Source of the DNA: a virus
Direction: 5' to 3' (one strand)
DNA length: 64,000 bases
IMG/VR virus record: IMGVR_UViG_3300031555_006030
Shown here: positions 9,294-62,335 of the stretch, one piece after another
How the letters are laid out: each line of letters begins with the position of its first letter
How positions within the stretch are numbered: position 1 is the stretch's first letter
Program-made: the position numbers and the translations under genes
Notes under the pieces: model-generated
Database searches by the model: none
The model's input: the letters and a program-made list of their open reading frames with translations, nothing else
What the model was told of the DNA's origin: nothing

Positions 9294-10373
9294 ATTTATG
9301 TGACTACCGCAGGATGGAAAAACAGCTTCGCATACGAGAAACTTATAGAACTTCTTATTCGTCAGATTATCTACCCTGATGAAGCAGTTGTTATGGGTGG
9401 AACTTGGCGCATTCCTGTTATGGAAAAATTATTGAAGAAAAGTTTTATTGAGGAATTAAAGCTTGATGGAACTTATAATGATGCATCTTTTAGCCGTGAA
9501 TATGAGTCAGAGTGGTCTGGAGATGCCGAAAATGCGTTTTTCTCTGCAGAAAAGTTTGATAAACATCGTCAATTATTACAGCCAGAATATGAATTCTCTG
9601 GCCGCACCTCTAAAAATGGTTATTATGTATTAGGAATTGACGTTGGCCGTTTTAAATGCACTACAGAGGTATGTGTATTTAAAGTTACTCCATAGATATA
9701 GGGCGCTGCACATAAATCTTTAGTTAATCTCTATTCTTATGAAGCAGAGGACTTTGAAGCGCAAGCTATTAAAATTAAGAAGTTATTTTATAAATACAAG
9801 GCGCGTATTGCGGCAATAGACGCGAATGGTCTTGGCGCAGGTCTAATTGACTTTATGACAAAAGGTCAAGAAGATCCAGAAACAGGAGAATATTTACCTC
9901 CTTTTGGAGTTGAAGGCGGAACCTCAGACGAGTTTAATGAATAGTATAAGAAAATTAAGGGTCCCGGTGTTGAGGAAAATGCTATGTATTTAATTAAAGC
10001 TAATGCGCCTATTAATACAGAAGCACATACTTATGTTCAAACTCAATTAGTTGGTGGTAAAATTAATTTATTAATAGATGAAACTTAGGCTAAAACTAAA
10101 TTGATGACAACTAAGATGGGATAGGAAATGGATGCGGCCAAGCGCGCAGAGTATCTAAAACCTTTTACTTTAACCACCATCTTGCGCGAGCAATTATTAA
10201 ATTTAGTAGAAGACAACGAAGGTGTTAATATTATTCTTAAGTAGTCTTCAAGAAGTATTCCCAAAGATAAATTTTCTGCTTTTGAATATGGTTTATATTA
10301 TATTAAACAAGAGGAAGATCGTAGTAGAAAAAGAAAGAAAAGAAACATATCTGAAATGATGTTCTTCTCGTAA
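9294..10373 (+). CDS. terL: terminase large subunit, nuclease domain (exon 2)
   Basis: IYVTTAGWKNSFAY matches the motif III consensus (iiSTPnG.NhFY). YVLGIDVGR marks the start of the RNase-H-like nuclease domain. It is in frame with ORF 9300, spans several TAG codons and ends in TAA at 10371. Confidence 0.6.
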
Positions 10374-10827: not shown

Positions 10828-10844
10828 ATTTAGAGAAAGAAGAG

Positions 10845-12455
10845 GTGCTTAACTTGAATAACAGAATACAAGAGATTCATTCTAAAGGTTTTGATATAAG
10901 CACCCCAAGAAGTGCTCCAGTAGATGGAAATGTTATTCCAGAGTTGGACTATTCAAAGATAAAAGTAGGAATTAGACATCTTGACGACGCAGTCGTTAAT
11001 TTGGGTAATTATAAGAAACTTGATCCTCGTATGACAAAAGAGCGTATTTAGCAGGCTATTGCTAGAGGCGATATAGAGTTTATGAGAGAGGCTTCTGAGT
11101 TCTACTTTAAAGTAAGTGGTATTTATTCTAGACTTTGTAAACACCTTGCTAATTTTTATAGATACGACTGGTTCATTATTCCTTATGCTACTTCAAATAA
11201 AGTTACTCCAGATAAGATTATTGAAGGTTTTGATAAAAATAGTGCTTATCTCGATGCTTTTGGCGTAAAAGAGTATTTTGGCGAAGTGGCATTAAAAATA
11301 ATGCGCCAAGGGTGTTATTACGGATATATTATTGAGGATACAGATACTGCGCAAGTGCAAGAGCTTTTGCCAAGATACTGTAGATCAAGATATAGCGTAA
11401 AGGGACGTCCGGCAGTAGAGTTTAACATGAAGTTTTTTGATGACTTCTATAAAGATAAAGATCAGCGCCTTCGTATCTTAAAAATGTTTCCACGAGATTT
11501 TCAAAAAGGATATACTGCTTATATTAATGGATAGTTAATTCCAGACTTTCCTGGAGATACTGCGGGATGGTATTTGCTCGACCCAGAGCATACTATGAAA
11601 TTTAATATTAATGGCGAAGATTATCCTCCTTTTATTTCGGTTATTCCACATATTATTGATTTGGATGCCGCTCAAGAGTTGGATAGAAAGAAAATGGCTC
11701 AAAAGCTTCTCAAAATCATTATTTAGAAAATGCCATTAGATAAAAATGGCGATTTGATATTTGATGTTGATGAAGCACAACAGCTTCATAATAATGCTGT
11801 TAGAATGTTAGGTAAGGCTATTGGTATTGATGTATTAACAACTTTTGCAGAGGTAGAAGTTGCTGATATGGCAGATAAAAATACTGCTACTACTATTGAT
11901 GAATTAGAAAAGGTTGAGAGAACCGTTTATAATGAATCTGGTACTGCACAAAATTTATTTAATACCGATGGTAATATCGCATTAGAAAAGAGCATTCTTG
12001 ATGATGAAGCGAATATGTATAACCTTCTTCTTCAATTTTAGTCATTTTTAAATTATATTATCAAACCTTTGAATAAAAATCCAAAAAAGTTATATTATAA
12101 AGTTGAAATACTTCCTACAACAATTTATAATTATAAAGATATGTCAAAAATTTATAGAGAACAAAGCGCGCAAGGCGGCTCTAAGCTGCTTGCTAGCATT
12201 GCTTTAGGACAATCTCAATCGGCAGTTTTAGCAACTGCAAAGTTTGAAAACGAGGTTCTTGACATTTCTAGTCTCTTCCAATCTAAGCAACAAAAAGAAG
12301 AGGCAAAAGCAAAAATTCAAAATAGCAACAAACCTGCTGAAAATAATGAAAACAAGTAGGAAGAAGTTGTTGAAAAAAAGAAAGTCGGCAGACAAGAAAA
12401 GCCTGATGATCAAAAAAGCGAAAAAACAATTCGCAATAAAGAAGCTATGAGCTAA
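10845..12455 (+). CDS. portal protein (SPP1 gp6-like)
   Basis: Four in-frame track segments (10845, 11082, 11730, 12069) are separated only by TAG. YSRLCKHLANFYRYDWFIIP is a portal-like segment. TTG start; ends in TAA. Confidence 0.75.
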
Positions 12456-12472: not shown

Positions 12473-13894
12473 ATGCATAAATCAGTTGCTACGATAAGCT
12501 CTCCTGAGTTTATCAATTTACAACCCCTTGATATCAATCCACTTATGAGCGCCTGTGAGATTAAGGTCTTATATGTCGGTGAAAATCGAAACAGATCCTA
12601 TATTACCAAAGATGTCGCAACGGAAATGGCGAAGACATTACGCGGCGCGCCCATTGTTGGTTATTATAAGGAAGAAAAAGAAGACTTTAGAGACCATGGC
12701 CGTGAAGTTATTATTGATGACGAGGGCATTAAATTTAACTGCAAAACCGTTCCTTATGGTTTTGTAGCTCCAGACGCAAAGGTATGGTTTAAAGAATTTG
12801 AAGATACCAATGATTTTGGAGAAACTATTTTGAGAGAGTATCTAATGACTACTGGATATTTGTGGACCGGTCAATTTGAAGAGTGTAAGTCCGCCGTTGA
12901 GAGTGATGGCAAGCCGCAATCAATGGAATTGGATGAAGATACCTTACAAGGGCACTGGGAAACCAATACTCGTGGCATGGATTTCTTTATTATAAATGAC
13001 GCAATTTTTTCAAAACTTTGCATTTTGGGCGATGACATTGAGCCTTGTTTCGAAGGCGCTAGTGTTACTGCGCCAAATGTTAGTGCGTCTTTTACAAAGG
13101 TAGACGATACCTTTAGACAAACATTATTTACTATGATGCAGGAACTTCAAACTGCATTACAAGGAGGTCAGCAAATGAACAACGATGTTGTTGAAAATGT
13201 TGTTGTCGAGGAGCCTGTAGTTGAGTTTAGCGCTGAGCCTGAGTTTGAGCCGGTTGTTGAACCTAGCTTTGAGCCAGAGCCTGAGACACCAGCAGAACCT
13301 TCTTTTGCTGCATCACAAGAGCCAGTTGTTGAAGATGCGCCAGTCGTTGCTGAAGAGCCTGTGACTGAGCCTGTTGTGGATGAACCTGTAGTTGAGCCAG
13401 TTGCAGATCCAGAACCTGCGGCTGAACCTACTCCTATGGATCCTGAACCGGCGTCCGCGCCTTCTATAGAGGAGCAGTTTACTGCGCTTCAAGCAGAGTA
13501 TGCAGATCTTCAGAGTAGATTCTCTACTCTTGAGTCTGTCCACAATGATCTTCAATCTAGATTCTCAACTCTTGAAACTGCGCATGCAGAACTTGTTGAA
13601 TTTAAAAGACTAAGTGACGATGCAAAGAAAGATGAAATGATTGGAAAATTCTACATGCTTAGCGATGATGATAAGGCAGATATTATTTCAAACAAAGCTA
13701 ATTACACTGTAGAAGAAATTGAAGAAAAACTTTCTGTAATTTGTTTCAGAAAAAAGGTCAATTTTGAATTAGAGGATAACTCTAAAATTAATAATAAAAT
13801 AGAGCAACCAGCTGTGACATTTAATGTGTCCGACCTTGGCGTTGCTTCTAAGCCCGACTGGTTAAAAGCAGTCGATAATGCGAAAAATCAATAA
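12473..13894 (+). CDS. scaffolding protein (acidic; EPVV and LQSRFSTLE repeats)
   Basis: A 473-aa uninterrupted ORF between portal and capsid, with a coiled-coil/acidic repeat region and no TAG codons. Confidence 0.55.
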   Translation: MHKSVATISSPEFINLQPLDINPLMSACEIKVLYVGENRNRSYITKDVATEMAKTLRGAPIVGYYKEEKEDFRDHGREVIIDDEGIKFNCKTVPYGFVAPDAKVWFKEFEDTNDFGETILREYLMTTGYLWTGQFEECKSAVESDGKPQSMELDEDTLQGHWETNTRGMDFFIINDAIFSKLCILGDDIEPCFEGASVTAPNVSASFTKVDDTFRQTLFTMMQELQTALQGGQQMNNDVVENVVVEEPVVEFSAEPEFEPVVEPSFEPEPETPAEPSFAASQEPVVEDAPVVAEEPVTEPVVDEPVVEPVADPEPAAEPTPMDPEPASAPSIEEQFTALQAEYADLQSRFSTLESVHNDLQSRFSTLETAHAELVEFKRLSDDAKKDEMIGKFYMLSDDDKADIISNKANYTVEEIEEKLSVICFRKKVNFELEDNSKINNKIEQPAVTFNVSDLGVASKPDWLKAVDNAKNQ

Positions 13895-13914
13895 TTTTAA
13901 GGAGGACATATAGC

Positions 13915-14436
13915 ATGGCTACTACTATTAAGCGTATTGGATTTGGTCAGGTTGAGCCTAATCATTTATCCGCTCAAAGAAATGGTCAAGTTTACGCACA
14001 ACTTCCTTGTAATAAGGATATCGCTATTCTTGAGAATGGTCAGTTCGTAAAGTATGACTATAAAACTGGCGAAGTTAACTTCACAGGCGCCGGCGAGTGG
14101 ATGCTCGTTATGAATGAAGTTAAAATTTATGATGCAAGAGAGTCTTATAAAGATTTTGCTCTTGTAAAGACAAATTATGATGATGGAATTATGGTTCCTA
14201 GAGTTCTTGCAACTCATGTTGGAGATATTTACACTACAAACTGCCTTGAGAAGGGAAATACTTCTGGTAAGGCTGAACTTGTTGGTACTGAGGAAATTGA
14301 TGTTGGAACCGAGCTTAAGATTAACGCTCAAGGTTTCCTTTCTACCGAAGGTACTAGCGATATTGTATTCCAAGTTGTAAAAGTTTATACAATGCCTGAT
14401 GGCCAACAAGGCATCAAGGTTATGCGTATTCAATAA
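13915..14436 (+). CDS. hypothetical head protein (possibly decoration)
   Basis: 173-aa ORF with no TAG, located between the scaffold and capsid genes. Confidence 0.4.
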   Translation: MATTIKRIGFGQVEPNHLSAQRNGQVYAQLPCNKDIAILENGQFVKYDYKTGEVNFTGAGEWMLVMNEVKIYDARESYKDFALVKTNYDDGIMVPRVLATHVGDIYTTNCLEKGNTSGKAELVGTEEIDVGTELKINAQGFLSTEGTSDIVFQVVKVYTMPDGQQGIKVMRIQ

Positions 14437-14456
14437 TAAAAGGGAGGGAAATAGTA

Positions 14457-15494
14457 ATGGCATTAAATAGAGAAGATTTACGTACATTAGCAATGCAGAC
14501 AGCAGGCGCTAATCCTTCTGCTCCCGTTGCATACTCGTTTAGCGGCACTAATTATAGTTATGCAGATTTAAACCAAGCTCTTCGTAATGAGTTAAAAGAG
14601 CTTGTTGGTTCATATGCTCTTTGGAGAGAAAATCATAATGTTGTGTTTGCACTTATGGAAGAAATTATCACAGATAAACTTCCTGCCAAGGTTATGCAAC
14701 AATATGGCGCCTTCGCTGAAATTAAAACTTATAAACAGGGTGAAAAGCCTATCTTTACTCAAAAGATTACTGAGGCTTCTCGTAGACGTGCAAAGCAATT
14801 CGTAACCAAGGTTGGTTCTGCTGGTCGTTATGAAGTTTTCAAGCTTGATGGTCGTAGCTACGAAGTAACTACATCGGCTATCGGTGCAGCTTGTCAAATC
14901 GCTATTGAGGAATTCCTTGATGGACGCGTTGATATGGCTACCCTTATCGACATTATTATGGAGGGTATGGATGACAAGATTTATCTTGAAATCGCTAATG
15001 CTCTTATCGCAACTGTTGAGACAATTCAGACTGCGAATAAGTTTAAGACTGATAAGTTTGATGAAGGTGAAATGGATGCGCTTCTTGCAGTTGCCGATTC
15101 TTATGGTAATGGCAGATCTACGATCTATTGCACATTTGAGTTTGCATCTACAATGATTCCTGCAGAGGGTTGGGTATCTGACACAATGAAGGATCAAATG
15201 TGGGCAAATGGTTACCTTGGTAATTACAAGGGACATCAAGTAATTGTTCTTCGTCAGTCTTTCACTGATGAAACAAATACAAAGAAAGTCATTGATCCTG
15301 CTTATGCTTGGATTATTCCTGGCGGAGCTGAAAAGCCTGTTAAGATTGCCTTTGAAGGTGATACTTGCATTAAGGAAGAGGATAATGATGACTGGTCTAA
15401 GGGCATTCACTTCTATAAGAAGGTTGGAGTTGCCGCTATCGTTAATAATGATATTTGTGTTTATCAAAACACATCTCTCACACTTGATAGATAA
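14457..15494 (+). CDS. major capsid protein
   Basis: 345-aa ORF in the expected position, followed by a strong terminator. No TAG. Confidence 0.65.
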   Translation: MALNREDLRTLAMQTAGANPSAPVAYSFSGTNYSYADLNQALRNELKELVGSYALWRENHNVVFALMEEIITDKLPAKVMQQYGAFAEIKTYKQGEKPIFTQKITEASRRRAKQFVTKVGSAGRYEVFKLDGRSYEVTTSAIGAACQIAIEEFLDGRVDMATLIDIIMEGMDDKIYLEIANALIATVETIQTANKFKTDKFDEGEMDALLAVADSYGNGRSTIYCTFEFASTMIPAEGWVSDTMKDQMWANGYLGNYKGHQVIVLRQSFTDETNTKKVIDPAYAWIIPGGAEKPVKIAFEGDTCIKEEDNDDWSKGIHFYKKVGVAAIVNNDICVYQNTSLTLDR

Positions 15495-15504
15495 TTAAGA
15501 TAAA

Positions 15505-15550
15505 GCAAGAGGGAAGAGAAGATATACTTCCCTTCCCTCTTAAATTTTTT
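15505..15550 (+). terminator. rho-independent terminator after the capsid gene
   Basis: An agagggaag...cttccctct stem is followed by TAAATTTTTTA. Confidence 0.5.
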
Positions 15551-15573
15551 AGGAGATAAAAGGAGTTAAAAAT

Positions 15574-16152
15574 ATGTTAAATAACACTGATAAAATTAGA
15601 ATTGAAAATAGATCTAATTCTATTGTTTCGTATCATGTGCCAGAATCCAATACTATTAGACGTTTTGTTGGAAATGAAGTAAAAGAAGTTTCTATGGGAG
15701 AATTGCGTCAAGCGATTCAAATTCCCGGCACTAGAAGATTAATTGAAAGTGATTTAATTATTCATAGCAAAGAAGCAGTCGATGAATTGCTACCTAATGC
15801 TGAGCCCGAATATTTTTATAATACTAAGGATGTAGAGTTTCTTTTAGAGCGTGGTACACTTGATCAGCTTTATGATGCTCTTGACTTTGCGCCAGAGGGT
15901 GTCGTTCAACTAATTAAAGATGAAGCTGTTAAGACCAATCTTAATGATATGCGCAAGAGAGAGGCTATATTAGAGAAAACAAACTTTGATGTTACTAAGG
16001 CTATTGAAATTAGACGCTTAAGTGAAACTGCAGTTAAAACCGAAGTAAAAACAAGACGCGCAACCCCTTTAACTGAAGATGCTGTTGAAAATAAGTCTGA
16101 AACACCTACAAGACGCATGAGCGCGCCTAAGTATACTATCGTCAAAGAATAA
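15574..16152 (+). CDS. hypothetical structural protein
   Basis: 192-aa ORF with no TAG. Confidence 0.45.
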   Translation: MLNNTDKIRIENRSNSIVSYHVPESNTIRRFVGNEVKEVSMGELRQAIQIPGTRRLIESDLIIHSKEAVDELLPNAEPEYFYNTKDVEFLLERGTLDQLYDALDFAPEGVVQLIKDEAVKTNLNDMRKREAILEKTNFDVTKAIEIRRLSETAVKTEVKTRRATPLTEDAVENKSETPTRRMSAPKYTIVKE

Positions 16153-16178
16153 TATATAAAGAAAAGGGGTGATTAATA

Positions 16179-17142
16179 ATGAATATTATTATACCATCAC
16201 TTGATTCCGTTAAAATAACAGAGACAAATTCTGCGTCTTTAACTACAACTAAAATATTTATTATAAGTAATTATATACCACAAACTCTTATATTAACAAA
16301 TACTGCTAAGCAAGAGTTTAATTGTATTTTAATTAGAGATGAAAAGCAAGATAAGTTTTCTTTGGGTTTAAATTGCTATTTAATAAGCTCTAAAGAAAAT
16401 ATTCCTGCTGGAGGATATACGGGAAAATTAACCGTAATAGAAGATGTTGAAAATGCTACTTAGAAAATAATTGATCTTGGATCTTTTGAATTTTCTTCAG
16501 GATTAGTAGATGAACATGCTCCAATTTATATTAAAGAAAGAAGAATTGGGGAGATTACTACACCAATTTTAGCATAGGATTTAAATTCTCAATAGATTAT
16601 TTTCTATATTTAGAAATCTTATGATGGAATATCTTTTTTGGATGAAACAAAAACTGTATGGGTAGATTATATACCAGCAGATTTTGAGCCTATTTATGAT
16701 CCAAACACTGGAAAAACATTAGAATTTTTATCGTCAAACGACGTAGAAGTTGATGATGCTAATCCTGAACCCGAAAGTGGAATTGATTGGATTAGATTAA
16801 TATGGGATGTTCCTAAAGCTGCAATGAGAGCTCCTGGAGAGGTTAAGTTTGCCATTTCTGTTTTAAACAGCTTTGCAAAAGAAACCTAGTCTGTAAGTTA
16901 TGTTTGGCAGACTTTTCCATCATCTTTTATAGTATATAAAAATCTTGGTTCTCGTCCTGAACTTCCAGTAGAAAGTCAAGATGACAGTGATTTTGCAACT
17001 GAACTTGATAATCGTGTTAAAGATTTAGAAAAAGCAGTAGACGCCTTATAGACTTTAGATAATACATCTGATAAAACAGATTATAAATTTGAATTAGGCG
17101 GAGGCGGAGCAGACTCTGTATTAAATGAGGAGGCAACGACAT
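16179..17142 (+). CDS. hypothetical structural protein (six TAG codons)
   Basis: ORFs 16179 and 16638 share a frame and are joined through TAGs; the gene ends in TGA at 17140. Confidence 0.45.
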
Positions 17143-17755
17143 GACTGATTTAAATGTTATTTATAACAGCTTTCTTGATTAGATTACAGATGATATGTAT
17201 ATGGAATTAACAAAAGAAGAAACAGAAAGTATGCTGTTTAATCTTTTTGAAAGCGCCTTACCGTGGTTTGAGTTTCCTCGTTTTGATTTATTTAGTTATG
17301 ATAAAGAGTTTGGCATGTATAAAGCAAATTTAACTTATGAAGAGATTAAAATTATCTCAATCTATATGATCGTTGAGTGGATTGGACAATAGTTAGCAAA
17401 TATTGAACTAGTTCGCATGAAATATAGTGGTAGTGATTTTAAGTTTACTTCTTAGGCTAATCATATGCATAAGCTCAAAGATATGCAAAAGGAATATGAG
17501 AGAAAAGGATTCCATTTGCAAAGACTATATAAGCGAAGAAAAGCAGATATAAATGGAGTTATGAGATCTACTTTTGGAAGTATAATGGATCCTCCTCAAA
17601 CACCTGTTTTCATAGACAGTGTTGCCGCTAAAAACGCAATTGAAAAATTAAATGAAGAAGTAAAAGGATTGCAACAATTTGTTGGAAATCAAGCAAACAC
17701 TAATCCTACTGATGATGAAGAGGTAATTATCTCTGGCGGAAAAGCTTTATAGTAA
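17141..17755 (+). CDS. head-tail connector/adaptor-like protein
   Basis: ORFs 17195 and 17465 are in frame with the ATG at 17141. TAG codons are present; ends in TAA. Confidence 0.45.
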
Positions 17756-17767
17756 GGAGATATTGCC

Positions 17768-18085
17768 ATGCTGTTAAAGTACGATTTTAATATTGATAAC
17801 AATGCAATTCAAGCAAATCTTAAGAGATTAACAAATCAAGTTTATAAATTGCTCCCAATAAGAGAAGAGGGCGCCGATTGGTAGAAACCTTTAACCACTA
17901 TCTTAGAGGAGTTGTCTGGAATGGACAGTTTGTTTTTCGGTCAACATACTGTTTTATTTACTTTAATCTGTAAGCTTGAAGGACTTTTTAATTTAACTGA
18001 AAAAAATGATTTCTTATTATATCGAGGAATTATTTTTGAATGTTTAAATCTATTAAGTGAGTTAAATAAAATATGTCAGGTTTAA
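17768..18085 (+). CDS. hypothetical head-tail joining protein
   Basis: ATG at 17768; one TAG; ends in TAA at 18083 and overlaps the next gene's start. Confidence 0.4.
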
Positions 18086-19098
18086 CGGATTTACAAAAAA
18101 GATTAAACTATCGCGGCGGCGCGCGATAGATAGACCGAATGATTGCGGATAAAGAACGAAGCTTAAATAAGGCATTACTTTATTCGTATTAGTCTGCAAC
18201 TATTGAATTAGTTAAAAACGGCAATTAGTTTAGATGTTTAATTAATCCAAACAAACTTACAATGGAAGCAGACGATAAAGTTATTTCAATACCTTTTGAA
18301 GATATCTGTCTCAATACAGAAAAACCCGAAGGTGAAATTACTTCAACTGGTAAGTAGAAGATTGATTTAGCCGTTGGTGATGTTGTAAAGTGGAAAGGAA
18401 AAACAGAAGATAGAGATACTTATTGGATTGTTTATTCTTAGTATTTACAAGAGACTGCCTATTTTAGAGGTCAAATGCGCCAATGTGAATCTGAGCCTAT
18501 TTCTATTAATGGAGTAGATTATTACTTCTATCTTAAGGGTCCTGATGAGAAAGGAATCGATTGGCAAAAATCTAAGCGTTTTATTTTTAACGATTTGAAT
18601 TATTCGTTAGAAATTTATATTACTAAGACAATAGAATCAAATGAGTTCTTTCAAAGATTTAAAAAATGTAAAGTCTTAGGGAAAAATTGGGAAGTACAAG
18701 CAGTTGACAGATATTCAACTGATGGTATTTTGATTGTTTATTTAAAAGAAGATTATGAGAATAAATGGGAAGATGCGCCGGACCAGGTTGAAGAAGATAT
18801 TATCTAGTCTGAACCAGAAACGCCAGCTACATTTGGTCTTAAACAGGCACCAGCGCCTGTTTCTCCAAGCATTGAAGGGCCAAATGAGGTATATCCTTAT
18901 GACATCGCTTCCTATAGCATTCTTAATGCAACTGGTGGTCAGTGGTTTTTAAGCAACAAGCGCGCCCGCATTAAGAGTTCTAATGATTCTTCTGTTGTAG
19001 TTGAGATTACTACTGGCAGAAGTGGTAGTGTTAGCTTAATATATAGAGTTGAAGGTATGAATGATATTACTTATAATATTAATATACTTTCATTATGA
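18073..19098 (+). CDS. hypothetical tail/neck protein with a C-terminal Ig-like region
   Basis: In frame with ORF 18475; six TAG codons; ends in TGA. Confidence 0.45.
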
Positions 19099-19115
19099 GA
19101 TAAAAGGAGTTTGTT

Positions 19116-19685
19116 ATGCAGAGAAATTTAATTGATACAAAACCATTAACTTCATCATTTCTTTCTTGTGAAAAAGATACGGAGCTTATTTTACGAAAGC
19201 TTTTTGTTGAGTCTTGTCAACATGGAGAGACTCTTAAAAAATTATTAGTAGTTTAGGCGCCAGATGTTCTTGACAAGAATTATGATGTAAGTGAGTATAC
19301 ATTAAAAAAGCTAATTGATGAAGAGTATATTAATATGGATCCTCTTATTAAGTTGCCAGAACATGCTCAAATCAAGGCTTTTATGGGACTTCATTTTGAT
19401 AACTTTACACCCAATGCAACGAATCCAGAGTTTAGAGATTCTATGATTCATATTGATGTTGTTTGCCACCATGACCATTGGCATCTTGGAAACTATCGTC
19501 AAAGACCTTTTAAAATTTTAGGTTAGATTGATGGTATTTTAAATAAGAGTAAATTGACCGGTATTGGTCAAATTAATTTTGTAGGATGTAGTAAAGCGGT
19601 TCTTAATGAGGATTGGAGTGCTTTTGCGCTAACCTATATGGCAATTCATGGAAGCGAGGACAAGATTCCTTTTGTTGAAGAATGA
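19116..19685 (+). CDS. hypothetical tail-completion-like protein
   Basis: In frame with ORF 19335; two TAG codons; ends in TGA. Confidence 0.45.
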
Positions 19686-19686
19686 G

Positions 19687-20424
19687 TTGGTTTTACTCTC
19701 TGGAGCAGATATTCCTTTTGTTGAAGGAACTGTAACCATTCACTAGCCAAAATTATATGAAATCTCTATGCTTGGAGAAGAGGCTTTATTTATTGGCTGT
19801 GAATTGTTGCGTTTTAGCAAAGATATATTAAATATTGAGGACAAAAATAGATTAATCAATTAGAAAGATTTTAATATATTAATGTCGATAATGAATGATA
19901 ATAGTGAATCAATGATATTTAATGTATCTTGTGCAAAACAAGTGTTAGAATTAATTTTCCCATTGTATGAAGTTATTTATACTCCAATGGCAATTTTACT
20001 TGTTGATCGGAATGATAGCACTACTTTGTGTGGAGAAATTAATTCAGAGAATTTTGATGCTTTTAAAGATATCTTAAATTAGATGTTTTGTTTAAAAAAA
20101 GCATCCTCTGCGCCTACTTATAACGCGTAGAGCGAATTAGCGAAACAGATTGCGGAAAAGTTTAAGCGTAGACAACAAAAGCTTGCCGAATTATAGTCGT
20201 CTACTAGTAAAAAGAAAATTGCAGTCTTTAGTAGATATATTTCGATATTAACAGTTGGATAGCATAAGGATATGAATTCTTTTATGTAGTACACTGTTTA
20301 TCAATTATTTGATGAATTTCAGCGGTGGGAGCTTAAAGTAGCTTTTGATAGTTATGTATAGGCGCGCATGGCTGGGGCAAAAGATTTAGAAGAACCTTAG
20401 GATTGGATGAAAGACCTCCATGAA
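19687..20424 (+). CDS. hypothetical protein (tail terminator position)
   Basis: TTG start; in frame with ORF 19882. Codons were checked one by one; six TAG codons; ends in TAA. Confidence 0.4.
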
Positions 20425-20465
20425 TAAAAGTTCTTAATATTAAAATTATAAGGAGGATAAGTCCT

Positions 20466-21347
20466 ATGAAATTTGGCGTACGCGAAATATGCAATGTCGT
20501 TTTCAAGGCTAAGTCACAGGTTAAGATTGGTAATACTACTTTCCAAGCCGGTCAACCCGTCCTTTATATCGATAGTGCAAAAACTTCTACTCTTGAAGGT
20601 GCTGCTACAACAGTTTATGCAACCGGTGGACGTGGAAATTCAAGATTACTTGCTTGGGAAGGAGAGAAGACTTTAACATTTACTGTTGAAGATGCTCTTC
20701 TTTCTCCTATTGGATTTGCTATTCTTTCTGGAGCAGGTCTTTTCAAGGGTAAGGAAGGTGACTCTGAAAAGGTTCATGTTCATGCAACGGCAACCGTCTC
20801 TTTTGATGATGAAGGTAAAGTTGATTTAGCTAACGCTTTATCTGCGTATGATGGCACAGAAGAACTTGATACAGTATCTCCTATTTATGTTTTAGAGATG
20901 GATGGAGACGATATTGTAGGTGAACCTAAAACAGCAACAGCAACAGCTGAAAAAACTACCATTACGGTAACTGGTTTAGAAGGAAAAACAGCATTTGTAG
21001 ATTTCTACATTTTAAAAGATGCTGGTAAAGTAAGTGAGCTTCAAATTGACGCTGAAACTTTTGCTGGCTACTTTTATGTTGAAGCCAACTGCCTATTCAA
21101 GAGAAAGAAGGATGGAGTTGATATGCCTGCAGAATTAACACTTCCTAAGGTTAAGATTCAATCTAACTTTACTTTCAGCATGGCGGCAACTGGCGATCCT
21201 TCAACATTTACTTTCACAATGGATGCAATGCCTGATTACACATTCTTTGATAAGACTCGTAAAGTTCTTTGCGCAGTTCAAATTATTGAGGATGCTGTTG
21301 GCGGAAATATCGTTGTTGATTCAGTATTTGACGAAGATTACGTCTGA
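20466..21347 (+). CDS. major tail protein
   Basis: 293-aa TAG-free ORF upstream of the chaperone and tape-measure genes, followed by a terminator. Confidence 0.6.
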   Translation: MKFGVREICNVVFKAKSQVKIGNTTFQAGQPVLYIDSAKTSTLEGAATTVYATGGRGNSRLLAWEGEKTLTFTVEDALLSPIGFAILSGAGLFKGKEGDSEKVHVHATATVSFDDEGKVDLANALSAYDGTEELDTVSPIYVLEMDGDDIVGEPKTATATAEKTTITVTGLEGKTAFVDFYILKDAGKVSELQIDAETFAGYFYVEANCLFKRKKDGVDMPAELTLPKVKIQSNFTFSMAATGDPSTFTFTMDAMPDYTFFDKTRKVLCAVQIIEDAVGGNIVVDSVFDEDYV

Positions 21348-21354
21348 TTTAAAT

Positions 21355-21405
21355 AAGCACTTTATGGAGGAAGGAGGCGCGCCCGGCGCCACCTTCCTTT
21401 TATTT
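21355..21405 (+). terminator. rho-independent terminator after the major tail gene
   Basis: A ggaaggaggcgc...gcgccaccttcc stem is followed by a T-run. Confidence 0.5.
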
Positions 21406-21424
21406 TATAGATAAGGAGAGAGAG

Positions 21425-23138
21425 ATGAAAAAAAGAGAAAAATACAGATCTGCGCATGGTTGGTTTTATACTTATTATTACGCCAGTGATTATATTAAAA
21501 ATTATGGTGGTTCAGATGCAATTGAAAGAGCTTTAATGGAAACACATATAGAAAGTATTAAAAATCAAATTGCTAATAATCCTCTTTTTATCTCTTCTGA
21601 AGATGCAAAAAGAATTTAGATAATTTTAAATAGAAGAATAAAAAATCAAAATAAATAGATGCAAACTCTTTTACAAGCGGCAAAAAATGATCCGAATTCT
21701 GAGGCACATAAAGCTTTAATTGCATATATTTAGTAGTTGGGTAAAAAAGTGGATATTCAAACCGCAGAAGAAATTTTGCAAAAGTTAGAATGGGACGAGG
21801 TTTCTGGAGTATATAAATATACTGGAACCAATAATTTTTTTGACTCTAAAAAAACTGCATTTTATACCTGGTCACCTGGGGATGCCTCAATTTATCGTGT
21901 AAAAAGTAAAGCTTTAGAAAAAATAAATAGTTTTTTAAAAATTCTTTTAGAGACATTTTCAGAAGAGCAAATAAAATCTGTATAGAAGTCGATAGATGCA
22001 TTAAAAGATATTAAAAAAGATATAGAAAACGAAGATTGGTTAAATAATCCAACTATAAAAACCTTAGAAAGAAAAGACTCAATTCCTATTGAATATACTC
22101 GAACAGTAGAAGGACAAGAGTTAGATATTGCCAACGCAATATTTTCTTATATTTCAAATATAAAAAATGCTTTATCAGGAATAAGTGAAATTAATAAAAA
22201 CTTATCTTGGATTTATGCAGAATTAGTTGGTAACATAGCAGGATCATACGCAAAACCAATTGCAGAAGAAAAGCTAGCAAAAGAAATTTAGAACTGGGCA
22301 AAAAAAGGAAACACTAATTCTGGAAAAACTCATACTAGAGTTAAAAATCAAAAAACTTTTATAGATGCACAGGTCAGACTTTTAGATTAGGATTTTTTAT
22401 CAGCTACTCAAAAGGCAATAGATGAAGAAAAAGAGAAAGCAAAAAGACATATTGAATCTTATATTTAGAAAGTAAATAAAAATAGTAATAATGTACAATA
22501 TTCTTTAAAACCACAAGTCAGCGCTTAGGGAAAAGCTGATGCAGAATTGACAGTTACTATTGATAATAAAAAGAAAAAACTTGGAATGTCTTTTAAAAAC
22601 TATAATTTGGAAACAGGAAATGGAATTACTTTACAAGACTCTGGTTTCTTATTAAATTATCTTGCAGATGCTCCTTCTGACTATTTTATGGAACATATTC
22701 TAAATATTTATGCAGAACATCCAAGTGAGGGACAAGAATCTTCTTATGCTCAGCAAGTTAATGGTTTAAGAGAGAAGGCAAAGAATGCTTTAAAAATAAA
22801 TTTATTATTTAGTGCATTAACTGGTTATAATTAGGGAAGAAGAGGTCGAGAAGCATAGCTATTAGTTGTATATAATAAAAACAGTGGCGCAAAAAAAGGA
22901 GAACTTCCTCCAGTTAAAGTATATAGTATGGGATCAATAGTCTTAGATATTTTAGATAATCAAGATTTTTCTGCTATAAGAACTACACCTAATTTTTCAA
23001 ACACGCTATTTGAAAATACATGGGAAAACTCTATTGATAATAGTCCAAATAAAAAAGAAGCTGCATTAAGAAACACAAAATTATTATATGAGGCAAGATA
23101 GAAAAATATCTCTGTTTCTTTGGCAAAACGCATATTGT
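21425..23138 (+). CDS. hypothetical 570-aa protein (about 13 TAG codons)
   Basis: ORFs 21425, 21737 and 22547 share one frame and are linked only by TAG; ends in TAA. Confidence 0.45.
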
Positions 23139-23141
23139 AAC

Positions 23142-23170
23142 TTGACAAGTTAAAAAATTTTTTCTATAAT
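23142..23170 (+). promoter_or_regulatory. consensus sigma-70 promoter inside the late module
   Basis: TTGACAagttaaaaaattttttcTATAAT has a 17-nt spacer. Confidence 0.55.
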
Positions 23171-23211
23171 ATATATAGAAAACAAATCGAGATAAAAGGA
23201 GATTAATTAAT

Positions 23212-23730
23212 ATGAATTTTAAAGATTTAGATATTAAATTAATAAATGAATATAATACTTTTAACTTTAACGGTAATGAAATTAAAGTATTAAAATATCT
23301 TCCAATTGAAGATAAATTTGATTTAATTATGATTGCTCTTCAAAAATCTGTTACTAATGGTATTTATAATCCAATTAGACTTCAAACATTTTTTGAATTA
23401 AATATTATGTATCTTTATACTGATATTTTATTTGAGGTTGAGGAAAGAGTTGATGAAGGAGTACTTTATGATAAAATTAAAACATCGGGCCTCTTAGGAA
23501 AAGTGATGGAAAATATTGAAGAAAGCGAGATGCTTGAATTAAGTCACTTTTTGAGTGAGTGTTTAGAACTTGAAAAGAATTATCGCAATAGTGCGGCTGC
23601 AATTGTATCCAAAATTGTTGATGATTTGCCAAAGAACGCAGAAGCTGCAAAAGACATTGTTGATAATTTTGATAAAGAGAAGTATAGTGAAGCTTTAAAT
23701 TTTGCCAGATCCATTGGAATGAAGATTTAA
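23212..23730 (+). CDS. putative tail assembly chaperone
   Basis: 172-aa acidic TAG-free ORF directly upstream of the tape-measure gene. Confidence 0.4.
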   Translation: MNFKDLDIKLINEYNTFNFNGNEIKVLKYLPIEDKFDLIMIALQKSVTNGIYNPIRLQTFFELNIMYLYTDILFEVEERVDEGVLYDKIKTSGLLGKVMENIEESEMLELSHFLSECLELEKNYRNSAAAIVSKIVDDLPKNAEAAKDIVDNFDKEKYSEALNFARSIGMKI

Positions 23731-23819: not shown

Positions 23820-26800
23820 ATGGGTAAAAATTAGGCAAGATTAGGTATTGGTATTGATTTTAATGTTAATACTGCTAGTTTAAATAATGTAAAGTAGTCT
23901 CTTGAGAAACTAAGAAAAATGAGCAAGGATGAAATTGAAAAATCTGGAGGCAATATTCTTGGCTTATCTAATATGAAAACAAAAAGCTGGAAAAACGATC
24001 TTGGCGATATGCGAAAAGAATTAGCATCATTGGAAAAGGCCTTTGAAGCAGCGTATAATCCAAAACTGGGTACATATGAATTAAATAAATTTAATGAAAG
24101 CTTGAAAGTGTCTGGAACTACTGCAGGATAGGCCTTTGCCACCATTGCAAATTATGGCACCGAGGGAAAAACAGCATTGCTTGATATGACTACAAGTATG
24201 TTAGCTATTGACCGAGTTGGGAAACAAACAAATGAAACCTTTAAAAAACTTGGCGATACAATGATGAATACCATTAGATGGACTATTACATCTACAATTA
24301 TTAACAGTATTTCAAGCGCTATTCAATAGGCATTTAATTATGCGGTAGATTTAGATGGTGCACTGAATGATATTATGATTGTTACCGATAAATCTTCGCG
24401 TGAAATGGAAAATTTTGCAAAATCTGCGAACAAGGCGGCAAAAGAGCTTGGCGCCTCTACTCGAGATTATACAGAAGCATCTTTAATATATTATCAATAG
24501 GGTTTAAGTGATGCAGAAGTTAAGGCGCGTACAGAAACAACTGTAAAAGTAGCTGCTATCACAGGATAGAATGCAGATGTTGTTTCTAAACAACTTACTG
24601 CTGTATGGAATGGTTATAAGGTTAGTGCCGAAGAGTCAGAAATGTATATTGATAAACTTTCTGCCGTTGCAGCAAGTACCGCAGCCGATCTTGAAGAATT
24701 ATCAACTGGTATGTCTAAAGTGGCTTCGGCTGCTAATGTTATGGGTGTTGGAGCTGATTCATTAAACGCTTAGCTTGCAACAATTGTTTCAGTTACTCGC
24801 GAAGCACCAGAATCTATTGGTACAGCTTTAAAAACAGTATATGCGCGTATGAGTGATATTGAAGCTGGACTAGATACTGAAACCACATTAGGTGAGTACA
24901 CTTCTCAAATGGCTCAAATGGGCATTAACGTACTAGATGCTAATGGTAAATTGCGTGATATGGAAGATATTATTAATGAAATCGGTAACGGATGGTCAAC
25001 CATGACTCGCGAATAGCAAGTATCCTTGGCGCAATCTATTGCTGGTACTAGATAGTATTCCCGTATGATGGCATTATTTGATAATTGGGGCATGTATCAA
25101 GAACAGTTTAATGTCTCTATGGAAGCTACTGGTACTTTAAATCAATAGCATATTGAGTACCTATAGTCGATTGAAGCACATCAAAACAAATTAAAAGCTT
25201 CGGCCGAAGGATTATATGATGCAATTTTTGATTCAGACTCTATTAAAGGAGTTTATGATGTTTTAAGTGGCTTTACTGAAATGGTAACTGGTTTAGTTAA
25301 AGGTTTAGGTGGAATGCCAGGTATCCTTTCTGTTATGTTAATGTTAATTACCACTCTTGGAAAAAGAAACATGCAAGATCTTATAATAAAAAGAGAGTCT
25401 AATAAGTTACAGGCATAGCTGTATAGAACATAGATGGAAAATAGTTAGGCTACTATTAAAAGTCTTGAAGAAGAAGTAAAAGGTCGTACGGAGTTAAAAG
25501 AATAGCTTCAAGACATCTTAGATCTTGAAAAAAGAATTATTGAATAGTCAGATAATTTAACTGATGATTAGTTTAATAATTTATAGGCTGGTATTAAACA
25601 ATATGCTGAAAATTTAAAGGCTGTTATTGCTATTGAAAAAGAATATAATAATATTAAAGCTGAACGAGATCAATTAAAGTAGTCTTTATCAGGTGAAACT
25701 ACTCAAACTTTTAAAAATGAAGCTGGCGAAAGAGTTGTAAGTTATGATTTAAAAAATAAAGAAAATGTAAAAGGAAGAATAGGAACAATAGAAGCGCGAA
25801 AGCGGTTATCCGACTTGGAAAAGGCAGAACATAAGGCCACTTTTAATCAAAATGCAAAATAGCTAACAAAACAAGAGTAGGATGAATTAAAATTTTTAAG
25901 AGAGTATTTACCATTAGCTGAGCGTAAATTAAAACTAGACGAAGAGTTAAAAAAAGCAGAAGAAAAATTAGCTAATGCAACTGAAAACACTGCTAACGCT
26001 AATAAAAACTTAAAAAGTAGTATGAATGACAGTCTTGATGCAGTAGGGCGCGCGGCAGTTGTGACTGAGGTTGCATAGGGGATTGCCTCGGTTGGCATGA
26101 CTGCAGCGATGGCTTCGGGGGCAGTACAATCTTTTGCAAGCGCTATGAGCGCTTCTGGAGGAGGCTTTTCAGATTTTCTTGGAGGTATTACCGGAGTAGC
26201 GGGTGCAGCTGGCTCAATGATAGGTAATATTACAGCTGCAAACAGAGCATTAAAAAAAGCAGGGCCTACTGCGCAAAGAGTAGGAGCAAAAATTTAGCTT
26301 GCTTTTGGCTGGGTAAGTCTTGTAATCGGTGCTCTTTCTGCGTTAATTTAGATAGTAAAGGAATTTAATTAGGCGCAAATAGATAGCGCAAATGCTACAA
26401 TTGAAGCAGAGCGAGAGAGATAGAAAGAACTTTAGAAAACCTTAGATTTAGAATAGTCTTTTTTAAAATTATATGAAACATATCAAAAAACTGGTGAAGA
26501 AACTGAATAGTTAATTTCTGCTACGGAGTAGATGTGTGAAGCTCTTGAAAGCTCTTAGTTAAAAGCTCTTGCCGCAGCTGGAGCATATGATTAGTTAGCA
26601 GCGTCTATTAGAGACAAAACTTCTGCAACATATGATGATTTGGCACAATCTGCTAATGCAGAAAAAAGCGCGGCAGAGACGAAATTAAACAAAGTAAAGG
26701 CTTCTAACACTGGAGGTATTGCAAATGCATCAGAAACTCTGGATTATATTAACGCAGGAGATTCTGTAACAGATGGAGATGCAGAAAACTTAGAAATTTT

Positions 26801-50401: not shown

Positions 50402-50632
50402 TTATTCTGCTACTTCTTCGTTTTTATTCTTTTCATTCTCAACTGCTGTGTTATATTCAGTTTCAGCTTTCTTTAATTCTTGTTCTACAAGATTTGTAAG
50501 ATCTGCGCCGAGAGTATCAAAAATTGCCTTCATTTCGTATAGCGGAACACCTTGTTGAACAAAATAATTTACAGTATTGATTAAAGCATTTTGAGCTTCA
50601 TTGTGTAATAAGATTGCAGGTTTCTATGCCAT
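50402..50632 (-). CDS. hypothetical 76-aa protein with TAG as codon 3
   Basis: The sequence reads ATG GCA TAG AAA..., with an SD GGAGAAAGAAA; ends in TAA. Confidence 0.35.
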
Positions 50633-50649
50633 TTTCTTTCTCCTTGTGT

Positions 50650-51388: not shown

Positions 51389-51409
51389 ATCCTTTTATCT
51401 CCTTTAGTA

Positions 51410-51676: not shown

Positions 51677-51687
51677 ATTATATCTCC

Positions 51688-52116: not shown

Positions 52117-52171
52117 TTATTTTCTCCTTAAATTACTTATATTATAATTATAATTTAATTTTTTATATTTG

Positions 52172-55639: not shown

Positions 55640-55696
55640 TTCATTTTCTCCTTATCATTTAATTTTGTATTTATTATAAAAATTATAATAAATAAT

Positions 55697-61620: not shown

Positions 61621-61623
61621 TTA

Positions 61624-62334: not shown

Positions 62335-62335
62335 C

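What the first reader, a model, noticed from the sequence alone, without database searches (positions are those of the whole stretch)
12473..23730. TAG use anticorrelates with expected protein abundance
About 1650 codons in scaffold, the 13915 protein, major capsid, the 15574 protein, major tail and the chaperone-like 23212 protein hold zero TAG. The interleaved minor or low-copy proteins carry about 2-3% TAG: tape measure about 50, the 21425 gene about 13, and the 16179 and 18073 genes 6 each. At that density a 345-codon gene would be expected to carry about 8. The pattern fits TAG being read less efficiently than ordinary sense codons and acting as a translational throttle or timer, with the most abundant virion proteins purged of it.
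Basis: seen in the sequence. Interest (0 to 1): 0.7.

Follow-up and report, generated by a model that had tools for sequence, protein, structure and literature searches.

The report
Abundant phage coat proteins avoid TAG
In this gut phage, which reads the stop codon TAG as glutamine, the proteins made in the largest amounts (capsid, a probable capsid decoration protein, tail tube) almost never use TAG, apparently because TAG is a poorly translated codon that selection removes from highly expressed genes.

Summary
TAG use among the 36 late genes is strongly uneven even after correcting for glutamine content (G-test p=5e-11; the six named genes have 0 TAG in 52 Gln-type codons, P≈7e-10).

The pattern is conserved for only three of the six genes: the major capsid protein (14457), the 13915 protein (probable decoration protein) and the tail tube (20466). 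In 43 of 43 TAG-recoded relatives, spanning 18 lineages, these three have TAG/Gln of 0.02-0.05, against 0.16-0.49 for the other genes. The protease/scaffold (12473), 15574 and 23212 are only mildly depleted clade-wide. For 15574, 20466 and 23212 the zero in this window is not significant on its own.

TAG avoidance tracks avoidance of classic rare codons (ATA rho=+0.92; also CGA, CGG, AGG, GGG). Relatives that do not recode TAG show the same codon bias in the same genes.

An unrelated crAss-like clade repeats the pattern against measured virion copy numbers (rho=-0.75).

Best reading: TAG is an ordinary but very poor glutamine codon, purged by expression-linked selection and fed by AT mutation pressure elsewhere. 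An adaptive "throttle or timer" is not required, and three sequence tests found no sign of one.

The parts
14457..15494 (+). Major capsid protein (HK97 fold), 345 codons. 0 TAG, 9 CAA, 4 CAG. It has the strongest codon bias in the window.
   Evidence: tblastn matches annotated major capsid proteins of Bacillus phages Kirov and Thrax, and the capsid gene of Phass-1 at 47% identity. All of the top 50 Foldseek PDB matches to the AF2 model are HK97-fold capsid or encapsulin chains. PC1 of synonymous codon use is 3.47. Across the clade TAG/Gln is 0.016, and 35 of 43 recoded relatives have zero TAG.
13915..14436 (+). 173-codon beta-rich protein between the protease/scaffold gene and the capsid gene; probable head decoration or cement protein. 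0 TAG in 10 Gln-type codons.
   Evidence: AF2 model with pLDDT 84. The best PDB fold matches are ~156-aa chains in the capsid structures of phages FCWL1 and T1, but the match is weak (E 3e-3 and 6e-3, TM about 0.4). PC1 is 3.23. Clade-wide TAG/Gln is 0.020, with zero TAG in 35 of 43 relatives.
20466..21347 (+). Tail tube (major tail) protein, 293 codons. 0 TAG in 6 Gln-type codons.
   Evidence: PHROG 2729, 'virion structural protein'. Homologous to Kirov_43, annotated 'tail tube protein'. PC1 is 2.23. Clade-wide TAG/Gln is 0.048, with zero TAG in 18 of 27 relatives.
12473..13894 (+). Prohead protease-like N-terminal part joined to an acidic, coiled-coil, scaffold-like C-terminal part; 473 codons. 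0 TAG in 17 Gln-type codons here.
   Evidence: Residues 21-244 match Kirov_34, annotated 'putative prohead protease'. It is TAG-free in the window and its closest relatives. Clade-wide TAG/Gln is 0.187 and only 8 of 41 relatives have zero TAG. Codon bias is weak (PC1 0.60).
15574..16152 (+). 192-codon protein of unknown role, just downstream of the capsid gene. 0 TAG, but only 4 Gln codons.
   Evidence: Not significant on its own (p=0.31). Clade-wide TAG/Gln is 0.181. No codon bias (PC1 -0.05).
23212..23730 (+). 172-codon protein in the tail-chaperone position, upstream of the tape measure gene. 0 TAG, but only 2 Gln codons.
   Evidence: Not significant (p=0.56). Its orthologues carry TAG (clade-wide 0.163; one TAG each in L001 and L004). 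Codon use resembles the minor genes (PC1 -1.82).
23820..29423 (+). Tape measure protein, 1,867 codons. 49 TAG, 53 CAA, 5 CAG.
   Evidence: Homologous to the Kirov tape measure protein.
11031..12455 (+). Portal protein. 5 TAG in 27 Gln-type codons.
   Evidence: PHROG 2739, portal, E=9e-64. Clade-wide TAG/Gln is 0.186.
16179..20427 (+). Six head-tail joining and neck genes: 16179, 17141, 17768, 18073, 19116 and 19648. They carry 6, 4, 1, 6, 2 and 9 TAG.
   Evidence: For the five with orthologues, clade-wide TAG/Gln is 0.29-0.49. 19116 resembles the Kirov tail terminator and 19648 resembles Kirov_42.
21425..23140 (+). 571-codon fast-evolving gene of unknown function. 12 TAG.
   Evidence: 25% identity to the L004 orthologue, which has 15 TAG.
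7587..10373 (+). Large terminase in two exons (about 7587-8184 and 9225-10373). 13 TAG in total.
47456..48319 (+).
   Evidence: 0 TAG in 17 Gln-type codons, p=0.0013. PC1 is 2.20. The only family match is PHROG 16490, of unknown function. No Pfam match.
50402..63849 (-). Early/replication arm on the - strand, which is almost free of in-frame TAG. It includes a DnaE-like Pol III alpha gene, NrdD and a helicase.
   Evidence: At most one in-frame TAG per called ORF.

Best explanation
The window comes from a large (~135 kb class) siphovirus of the Phass-1-like group. It reads TAG as glutamine.

Within this code, TAG is a genuine synonymous Gln codon but a very poor one. In a sequenced relative it is decoded by a phage-encoded tRNA(CUA). 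I infer that this tRNA competes with host release factor 1 on the ribosome.

Two forces then shape where TAG occurs:
- AT-biased mutation pressure (a single CAG to TAG transition) keeps feeding TAG into weakly selected genes, where it reaches 30-50% of Gln codons.
- Selection on translation scales with the amount of protein made. It removes TAG from the genes producing hundreds of copies per virion (capsid, probable decoration protein, tail tube) and keeps the preferred CAG there. The same selection removes ATA, CGA, CGG, AGG and GGG from those genes.

Shown: the TAG distribution, its conservation, that TAG means Gln, the parallel with rare-codon avoidance, and the replication in a second clade.

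Inferred: that the cost of TAG is slower or prematurely terminated translation, and that the three proteins are the most abundant ones in this clade.
For: 1. TAG codes for Gln. Window TAG sites align mainly with CAA, CAG or TAG in relatives. In unrecoded relatives 40-44% of them align with Gln, at least as often as CAA/CAG sites do.

2. Synonymous codon use with Gln left out separates the same genes without supervision. PC1 is 3.47 for the capsid protein, 3.23 for 13915, 2.23 for the tail tube and 2.20 for 47456. Across late genes PC1 against TAG fraction gives rho=-0.60, p=6e-4. An index trained only on the scaffold and capsid genes predicts TAG fraction in the other late genes (rho=-0.53, p=0.004).

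3. Clade level. The capsid, 13915 and tail tube genes together have lower TAG/Gln than the rest in 43 of 43 recoded loci and in 18 of 18 lineages defined at 85% MCP identity.

4. Across 16 orthologue groups TAG/Gln correlates with ATA/Ile (rho=+0.92, p=3e-7), CTT/Leu (-0.90), AAG/Lys (-0.84) and CAG/(CAA+CAG) (-0.74). The same three genes show the same bias in 16 unrecoded relatives.

5. In pooled counts TAG is the third most avoided codon in the three core genes (log2 -3.63). Only CGG and CGA are more avoided (-3.73), and ATA follows (-2.81). CAG is the most preferred (+2.06).

6. Lack of time does not explain it. Synonymous sites are saturated even against the closest relatives (identical codon at 0.63-0.75 of conserved two-fold sites), and only about a quarter of TAG positions are shared.

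7. Gene transfer or tighter protein constraint do not explain it. Capsid-protein distances agree with portal and terminase distances (rho 0.72-0.78). Mean pairwise identity is 59% for the capsid protein, 60% for the portal and 64% for the terminase.

8. Independent clade. In four TAG-recoded relatives of phiCrAss001, TAG/Gln is 0.04 for gp32 and 0.02 for gp36. Both have 9 copies per asymmetric unit of a T=9 capsid, roughly 535 per virion (PMC10172136). Proteins present at 6-24 copies have 0.08-0.42. Spearman rho=-0.75, p=0.013; Fisher p=5e-12.

9. The relative Phass-1 carries a tRNA(CUA) within a 33-tRNA cluster on its standard-code arm.
Against: - There is no expression, proteomic or suppression-efficiency measurement for this phage or its clade. 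Abundance is inferred from homology, gene order and codon bias.
- The decoration-protein assignment of 13915 rests on a weak fold match (TM about 0.4).
- No suppressor tRNA lies in the 64 kb window, so the decoding agent for this particular genome has not been seen.
- The host, and therefore its tRNA pool, is unknown. 'Optimal' codons are defined internally.
- Shine-Dalgarno strength, an independent proxy for expression, does not separate the TAG-free genes (rho=-0.08, p=0.67).
- The protease/scaffold, which should also be abundant, is not depleted clade-wide (0.187).
Confidence: 0.7

Rival explanations
1. Adaptive throttle. TAG is kept in low-copy genes because each TAG lowers the yield. The number of TAGs would then set virion protein stoichiometry within operons whose genes all have strong ribosome-binding sites.
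For: TAG load is graded, roughly in the inverse order of expected copy number. The tape measure protein has 49 TAG and the neck genes have TAG/Gln of 0.29-0.49. The portal, the protease/scaffold, 15574 and 23212 lie at 0.16-0.19, and the three core genes at 0.02-0.05. Nearly all late genes have equally strong Shine-Dalgarno sites, so initiation alone does not obviously set the ratios. In the crAss-like clade TAG/Gln falls as measured copy number rises.
Against: TAG positions are uniform along genes (KS p=0.42). They turn over quickly between relatives. TAG frequency in minor genes simply follows other AT-rich rare codons. TAG:CAG in minor genes (1,917:832, or 2.3:1) is lower than the comparable first-position pair TTG:CTG (1,169:234, or 5:1), so TAG is not above mutational expectation. 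Unrecoded relatives reach the same stoichiometry problem without TAG and show the same codon-bias gradient. At 95% read-through per codon only 8% of tape measure chains would be completed, so the effect per codon must be small.
Confidence: 0.15
2. Assembly poisoning. TAG is avoided in lattice-forming proteins because truncated products are dominant-negative in capsid or tube assembly, not because those proteins are abundant.
For: The three strongly depleted proteins all form repetitive lattices. TAG is depleted about 12-fold, more than ATA at about 7-fold.
Against: The same genes avoid many ordinary rare codons that cause no truncation, and they do so in unrecoded relatives too. TAG sites are conserved as Gln as well as CAA/CAG sites are, so there is no sign of ambiguous decoding. 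The portal and the ring proteins also form oligomers, yet they carry TAG. This reading may add to the main explanation rather than replace it.
Confidence: 0.08
3. Timing. The TAG-free proteins must be translated before the suppressor tRNA accumulates, so they are kept in the standard code like the early genes.
For: Early and replication genes are TAG-free, and a published model proposes that the code switches during infection. The suppressor tRNA of Phass-1 lies on the standard-code arm.
Against: The TAG-free genes are interleaved on the same strand and at close spacing with TAG-rich genes, including the portal, which is needed to nucleate proheads. Timing does not predict the strong general codon bias of exactly these genes, nor the same bias in unrecoded relatives.
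Confidence: 0.05
4. Artefact of history or composition: the TAG-free genes were recently imported from unrecoded phages, are more conserved, or simply contain little Gln.
For: Genes 15574, 20466 and 23212 do have few Gln codons (4, 6 and 2), so their zeros in this window are individually non-significant.
Against: The effect survives correction for Gln and for Gln+Lys+Glu (p=5e-11 and 5.6e-12). Capsid-protein distances agree with portal and terminase distances, and the nearest neighbour of a recoded locus by capsid protein is itself recoded in 35 of 43 cases. The capsid protein is no more conserved than the portal or the terminase. Synonymous sites are saturated.
Confidence: 0.02

Closest known systems
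TAG-to-Gln (code 15) recoding of late genes in gut phages (Ivanova 2014; Yutin 2021, PMC7886860; Borges et al., bioRxiv 10.1101/2021.08.26.457843; Peters 2022, PMC9523058)
   Same: In-frame TAG restores full-length structural genes. The replication arm stays in the standard code. TAG is never used as a stop. A sequenced relative carries a phage tRNA(CUA).
   Different: Those studies contrast late genes with early genes and test only for gene families enriched in TAG (lysis genes, a crAss tail protein). None of the texts I searched reports that the most abundant late proteins are systematically TAG-free.
Phass-1 and the proposed Phassvirus group (PMC10607447; OQ749652)
   Same: Capsid protein 47% identical, with the same gene order from terminase to tail tube. 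DnaE-like polymerase. TAG recoding of the terminase and tape measure genes. Related contigs of about 130-136 kb.
   Different: This window is a separate lineage; megablast finds no phage record covering more than 2% of the region. That paper names TerL and the tape measure, of the four signature proteins it analysed, as the ones containing TAG. It draws no conclusion about abundance.
Expression-linked codon usage bias in bacteria and phages (general knowledge), including avoidance of ATA, CGA, CGG, AGG and GGG in highly expressed genes
   Same: TAG behaves quantitatively like these codons, both across genes and across the clade.
   Different: The avoided codon is a reassigned stop. Its cost probably includes termination by release factor 1, which is inferred and not measured here.
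Reassigned UAA/UAG in ciliates are used less in highly expressed genes (PMC10553269)
   Same: The direction of the effect is the same, and those authors offer the same interpretation (translational inefficiency of reassigned codons).
   Different: That is a cellular genome with a fixed code and no competing release factor activity for those codons. Here a virus imposes the code on a host that presumably uses the standard code.

Membership tests
Code-15 (TAG=Gln) recoded phage | In-frame TAG in conserved phage genes; reading TAG as sense restores full-length ORFs | tested here: met
   Summed length of ORFs of 100 aa or more rises from 10,514 to 21,183 aa. Portal, terminase and tape measure genes become intact.
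Code-15 (TAG=Gln) recoded phage | TAG positions align with Gln in homologues that use the standard code | tested here: met
   Against unrecoded L006, 14 of 34 window TAG sites align with CAA or CAG, and no other residue exceeds 3. In L006, L010 and L049, 40-44% of TAG sites are Gln, at least as many as at CAA/CAG sites.
Code-15 (TAG=Gln) recoded phage | TAG is not used as a terminator | tested here: met
   Stops of the 36 late genes are 28 TAA and 8 TGA. Stops of the - strand ORFs beyond position 49,800 are 14 TAA and 6 TGA.
Code-15 (TAG=Gln) recoded phage | Recoding is concentrated in structural/late genes while replication genes stay in the standard code | tested here: met
   200 TAG in + strand genes between 5128 and 49806. 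There are 0-1 per gene in - strand genes from 50402 to 63849.
Code-15 (TAG=Gln) recoded phage | Phage-encoded suppressor tRNA with anticodon CUA | tested here: inconclusive
   The 64 kb window has no tRNA gene, and neither do the structural blocks of 26 relatives. The relative Phass-1 has tRNA(CUA) at 105,747-105,820 in a tRNA cluster outside the homologous region. The window covers only about half of a genome of this class.
Phass-1-like large siphoviruses | Homologous and collinear terminase, portal, protease, capsid and tail tube module, plus a DnaE-type polymerase | tested here: met
   tblastn of window proteins against Phass-1 gives collinear hits from terminase to tail tube (28-49% identity) and a Pol III alpha hit at 37%. 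Related contigs are 130-136 kb.
Expression-linked codon bias (translational selection) | The genes that avoid the focal codon show independent bias at other amino acids | tested here: met
   PC1 of codon use without Gln. Lys, Ile, Leu, Phe, Val and Gly codon choices differ at p from 8e-11 to 4e-3. Orthologue-group correlations reach rho up to 0.92 in magnitude.
Expression-linked codon bias (translational selection) | The bias correlates with measured protein abundance | tested here: inconclusive
   This is met in the crAss-like clade using cryo-EM copy numbers (rho=-0.75, p=0.013). No abundance data exist for the window's own clade.
Expression-linked codon bias (translational selection) | Preferred codons match the host's abundant tRNAs or its highly expressed genes | not testable with these tools
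   The host is unknown. Homologues in Bacillus and Enterococcus phages and AGGAGG-type ribosome-binding sites only suggest a Bacillota host.
Programmed rare-codon attenuator (throttle) | Regulatory codons are conserved in position or clustered (for example near the 5' end) | tested here: not met
   TAG is uniform along genes (KS p=0.42). Only about 25% of TAG positions are shared with relatives of 70-80% amino-acid identity.
Programmed rare-codon attenuator (throttle) | The codon is used above mutational expectation in the regulated genes | tested here: not met
   TAG:CAG is 2.3:1 in minor genes, against 5.0:1 for TTG:CTG (counts).

The most novel reading that the evidence does not exclude
TAG load is an evolved elongation-level dial. 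All late genes have similarly strong ribosome-binding sites, so the number of TAG codons, each with a small chance of termination, would set the relative yields of virion proteins. These yields range from hundreds of copies (0 TAG) to a handful (49 TAG in the tape measure protein). The rule would hold across unrelated recoded phage clades.
Probability: 0.15. Interest if true: 0.7.

Novelty: new variant of a known kind. Interest (0 to 1): 0.45.

Why it matters
Current accounts of stop-codon recoding in phages treat late and structural genes as one recoded block, used to delay late gene expression. This analysis shows a strong and conserved exception inside that block, found in two unrelated clades. 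The proteins made in the greatest numbers are kept in the standard code.

Three things follow.
- Suppression of TAG appears to be good but not free during infection, which bounds its efficiency. Forty-nine TAGs are tolerated in one essential gene, yet about 6-8 are not tolerated in the capsid gene.
- TAG density, like ATA or CGA density, becomes a sequence-only indicator of which uncharacterised virion genes are highly expressed. Here it flags 13915 and 47456.
- Gene callers that pick one code per genome block should expect code-11-compatible genes inside code-15 blocks.

The pattern can be tested directly by metaproteomics or by recoding experiments.

Tried and rejected
- Shine-Dalgarno duplex energy as an independent proxy for expression shows no relation to TAG fraction (rho=-0.08).
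- A 5' clustering of TAG, as a gate would predict, is absent.
- Recent import of capsid genes from unrecoded phages is rejected.
- Higher protein conservation of the capsid protein is rejected.
- TAG restricted to variable or ambiguity-tolerant sites is rejected.
- The idea that the phage tRNA set covers only the A-ending codons common in minor genes is not supported. Phass-1 carries both Lys-CUU and Lys-UUU, and both Gln-CUG and Gln-UUG, among others.
- Pfam gave nothing for the six TAG-free genes, and PHROGs mostly returned families of unknown function.
- PDB sequence searches with the capsid profile and the tail tube protein gave nothing useful.
- Megablast of the region against the phage collection found only a 239-base match at 75% identity.
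- Rfam found no RNA family in the window or in the terminase insertion.
- My impression that the 49825 protein is RuvC-like was not borne out by Pfam, so I dropped it.

Full report
**What the window is**

Reading only TAA and TGA as stops doubles the summed length of ORFs of 100 aa or more, from 10,514 to 21,183 aa. This gives a continuous + strand late block from about 5128 to 49806.

- The block encodes a terminase, a portal (PHROG 2739), a protease/scaffold, the capsid protein, neck proteins, the tail tube, a 1,867-aa tape measure protein and YadA-like fibres.
- A - strand replication arm follows, with DnaE-like Pol III alpha, NrdD and a helicase.
- No gene ends in TAG, and the window holds no tRNA gene.
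- The capsid protein is 47% identical to that of Phage Phass-1, a published 136-kb TAG-recoded gut phage (PMC10607447).
- It is about 39% identical to genes in ~140-kb Enterococcus phages, and 23-25% identical to annotated major capsid proteins of large Bacillus siphoviruses.
- Gene order matches Bacillus phage Kirov: portal, 'prohead protease' (=12473), a small protein (=13915), the capsid protein, then 'tail tube protein' (=20466), then the tape measure protein.
- An AF2 model of the 14457 protein (pLDDT 65) matches only HK97-fold capsid and encapsulin chains in the PDB.
- A better model of the 13915 protein (pLDDT 84) weakly matches ~156-aa chains in the T1 and FCWL1 capsid structures. This suggests a decoration protein.

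**Checking the observation**

- Across 36 late genes (200 TAG, 326 CAA, 73 CAG), TAG use relative to CAA+CAG is highly uneven (G=118.7, p=5e-11).
- The six named genes have 0 TAG in 52 Gln-type codons (P=7e-10), and none of 20,000 label shuffles reproduced that.
- Correcting for Gln+Lys+Glu content gives p=5.6e-12.
- Taken singly, only 12473, 14457 and 13915 are significant. Genes 15574, 20466 and 23212 contain very few Gln codons.

**What TAG encodes**

Window TAG sites align mostly with CAA, CAG or TAG in relatives. In relatives that do not recode, 40-44% of them are Gln. CAA/CAG sites align with Gln in 20-36% of cases.

TAG is therefore a faithful Gln codon and is not confined to variable positions.

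**An independent signal in the same genes**

Synonymous codon use at other amino acids differs sharply between TAG-free and TAG-bearing late genes.

| Codon share | TAG-free late genes | TAG-bearing late genes |
|---|---|---|
| AAG among Lys | 0.53 | 0.24 |
| ATA among Ile | 0.07 | 0.26 |
| TTC among Phe | 0.30 | 0.13 |
| CTT among Leu | 0.52 | 0.27 |

- An unsupervised principal component of codon use, with Gln left out, puts the capsid protein, 13915, the tail tube and 47456 at the top. It correlates with TAG fraction (rho=-0.60, p=6e-4).
- An index trained on two genes predicts TAG fraction in the others (rho=-0.53, p=0.004).
- The protease/scaffold, 15574 and 23212 do not share this bias.

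**Comparative test**

A capsid-protein profile retrieved 80 related loci from IMG/VR. After removing duplicates, 43 are TAG-recoded, 16 are not, and 9 are intermediate.

Pooled TAG/Gln in the recoded loci:

| Gene | TAG/Gln |
|---|---|
| Capsid protein (14457) | 0.016 |
| 13915 | 0.020 |
| Tail tube (20466) | 0.048 |
| 23212 | 0.163 |
| 15574 | 0.181 |
| Portal | 0.186 |
| Protease/scaffold (12473) | 0.187 |
| Terminase and neck genes | 0.29-0.49 |

- The three core genes together are below the rest in 43 of 43 loci and in 18 of 18 lineages.
- Across orthologue groups TAG/Gln tracks ATA/Ile (rho=+0.92), CTT/Leu (-0.90), AAG/Lys (-0.84) and the CAG share (-0.74).
- The same three genes show the same bias in the unrecoded relatives, so the gradient exists without recoding.
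- In pooled counts TAG is the third most avoided codon in the core genes, at about 12-fold. Only CGG and CGA are more avoided, and ATA, GGG and AGG follow. CAG is the most preferred.

**Excluding simpler causes**

- Synonymous sites are saturated even against the closest relatives, and only about a quarter of TAG positions are shared. Lack of time is therefore excluded.
- Capsid-protein distances agree with portal and terminase distances, and the capsid protein is no more conserved than they are. Import from unrecoded phages and tighter constraint are therefore excluded.

**Replication in an unrelated clade**

The phiCrAss001 capsid protein retrieved 80 Steigviridae loci, of which seven are TAG-recoded. 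I used four independent ones, together with copy numbers from the cryo-EM atlas of phiCrAss001 (PMC10172136).

- TAG/Gln is 0.04 for gp32 and 0.02 for gp36. Both have nine copies per asymmetric unit of a T=9 capsid.
- It is 0.08-0.42 for the 6- to 24-copy portal, ring, hub and muzzle proteins.
- Spearman rho=-0.75, p=0.013; Fisher p=5e-12. ATA avoidance runs in parallel.

**Mechanism**

The simplest account is mutation-selection balance on a synonymous codon.

- Single CAG to TAG transitions under AT pressure feed TAG into weakly selected genes.
- Selection proportional to expression removes it from the most translated genes.

The physical cost is inferred. It would be slower decoding by a phage tRNA(CUA), and occasional termination by release factor 1.

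- Phass-1 carries such a tRNA in a 33-tRNA cluster on its standard-code arm.
- Forty-nine TAGs in the tape measure gene mean that read-through per codon must be high. At 99% about 61% of chains finish; at 95% only about 8% do. A 6-8-TAG capsid gene would then lose only a few per cent, and that is the size of effect that codon-usage selection acts on in the most expressed genes.

**Throttle or timer**

I found no sequence evidence that TAG in minor genes is maintained for regulation.

- There is no 5' clustering.
- Positional turnover is fast.
- TAG:CAG (2.3:1) is below the TTG:CTG ratio (5:1) in the same genes.

One observation leaves room for the idea. Shine-Dalgarno sites are uniformly strong across late genes and do not track TAG, so something other than initiation may contribute to stoichiometry.

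The early-versus-late 'timer' is the published model, and the capsid result does not bear on it.

**Literature**

The phage recoding papers I could search report TAG enrichment in late, structural and lysis genes, and they test only for enrichment. I found none reporting that the most abundant virion proteins are exempt.

The Phass-1 paper says that, of the four signature proteins it analysed, TerL and the tape measure contain TAG. It does not comment further on the capsid protein or the polymerase.

The same tendency is reported for reassigned codons in a ciliate (PMC10553269). The result is thus an expected consequence of codon-usage theory, but I did not find it documented for recoded phages.

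**Limits**

- Gene starts are approximate (first ATG after a stop).
- Pooled counts include related genomes. The 18-lineage sign test and the use of four crAss-like lineages address this only in part.
- Abundance in the window's own clade is inferred, not measured.

Noticed in passing
window 8185-9224 (ORF 8491-9210): The large terminase gene is interrupted by a 1,040-bp insertion at a single point. Relative L007 and the other recoded relatives have an uninterrupted 581-aa gene. The insertion encodes an I-HmuI-like HNH/NUMOD homing endonuclease that itself contains 2 TAG. This is probably a mobile intron, but Rfam finds no group I or group II intron model.
   Followed up: partly
window 47456-49483: Three adjacent late-strand genes are nearly TAG-free (0, 1 and 1 TAG), and at least two have strong 'high-expression' codon bias. 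They encode a 287-aa Cys-rich protein with a hydrophobic segment, a 145-aa protein (PHROG 20016) and a 238-aa Met/Tyr/Gly/Asn-rich low-complexity protein. Their function is unknown. They could be abundant products or recent acquisitions.
   Followed up: partly
window 49825-50265 (- strand): The first gene of the otherwise TAG-free - strand arm carries 5 TAG among 7 Gln-type codons. Strand is therefore not a perfect proxy for which code a gene uses. No Pfam family matched.
   Followed up: partly
window 32145-34352, 34409-37942, 38264-40270: Three paralogous fibre genes are rich in 'SHAEG' repeats; Pfam finds YadA head repeats in the 32145 protein. Two of the three have unusually low TAG/Gln (0.18 and 0.12) for large late genes.
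   Followed up: no
loci L009, L018, L033, L034, L041, L066-L068, L073: Relatives with only 3-9 in-frame TAGs carry them repeatedly in orthologues of the neck genes 17141, 17768, 18073 and 19648. Three loci have 4 TAGs in the 105-aa 17768 orthologue alone. This may show where recoding starts, or it may reflect shared ancestry.
   Followed up: no
window, all called genes: TAG is never used as a stop, even in the standard-code - strand arm (late genes 28 TAA and 8 TGA; - strand ORFs 14 TAA and 6 TGA). TAG terminators therefore appear to have been cleared from the whole window.
   Followed up: yes
window 10374-11030 and portal start at 11031: A 650-bp stretch has no called ORF, and the portal is called at 474 aa against 517-527 aa in relatives. 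The called start has no Shine-Dalgarno site (dG -0.4). The true portal start probably lies upstream and uses a codon other than ATG.
   Followed up: no
proteins P0121-P0240: Homologues of the capsid protein carry a precomputed Pfam family, PF27364. It is absent from the local Pfam copy, so my own Pfam scan found nothing. More than 7,800 capsid-protein homologues and about 8,000 homologues of 13915 exist in metagenomes, so this phage group is very common.
   Followed up: no
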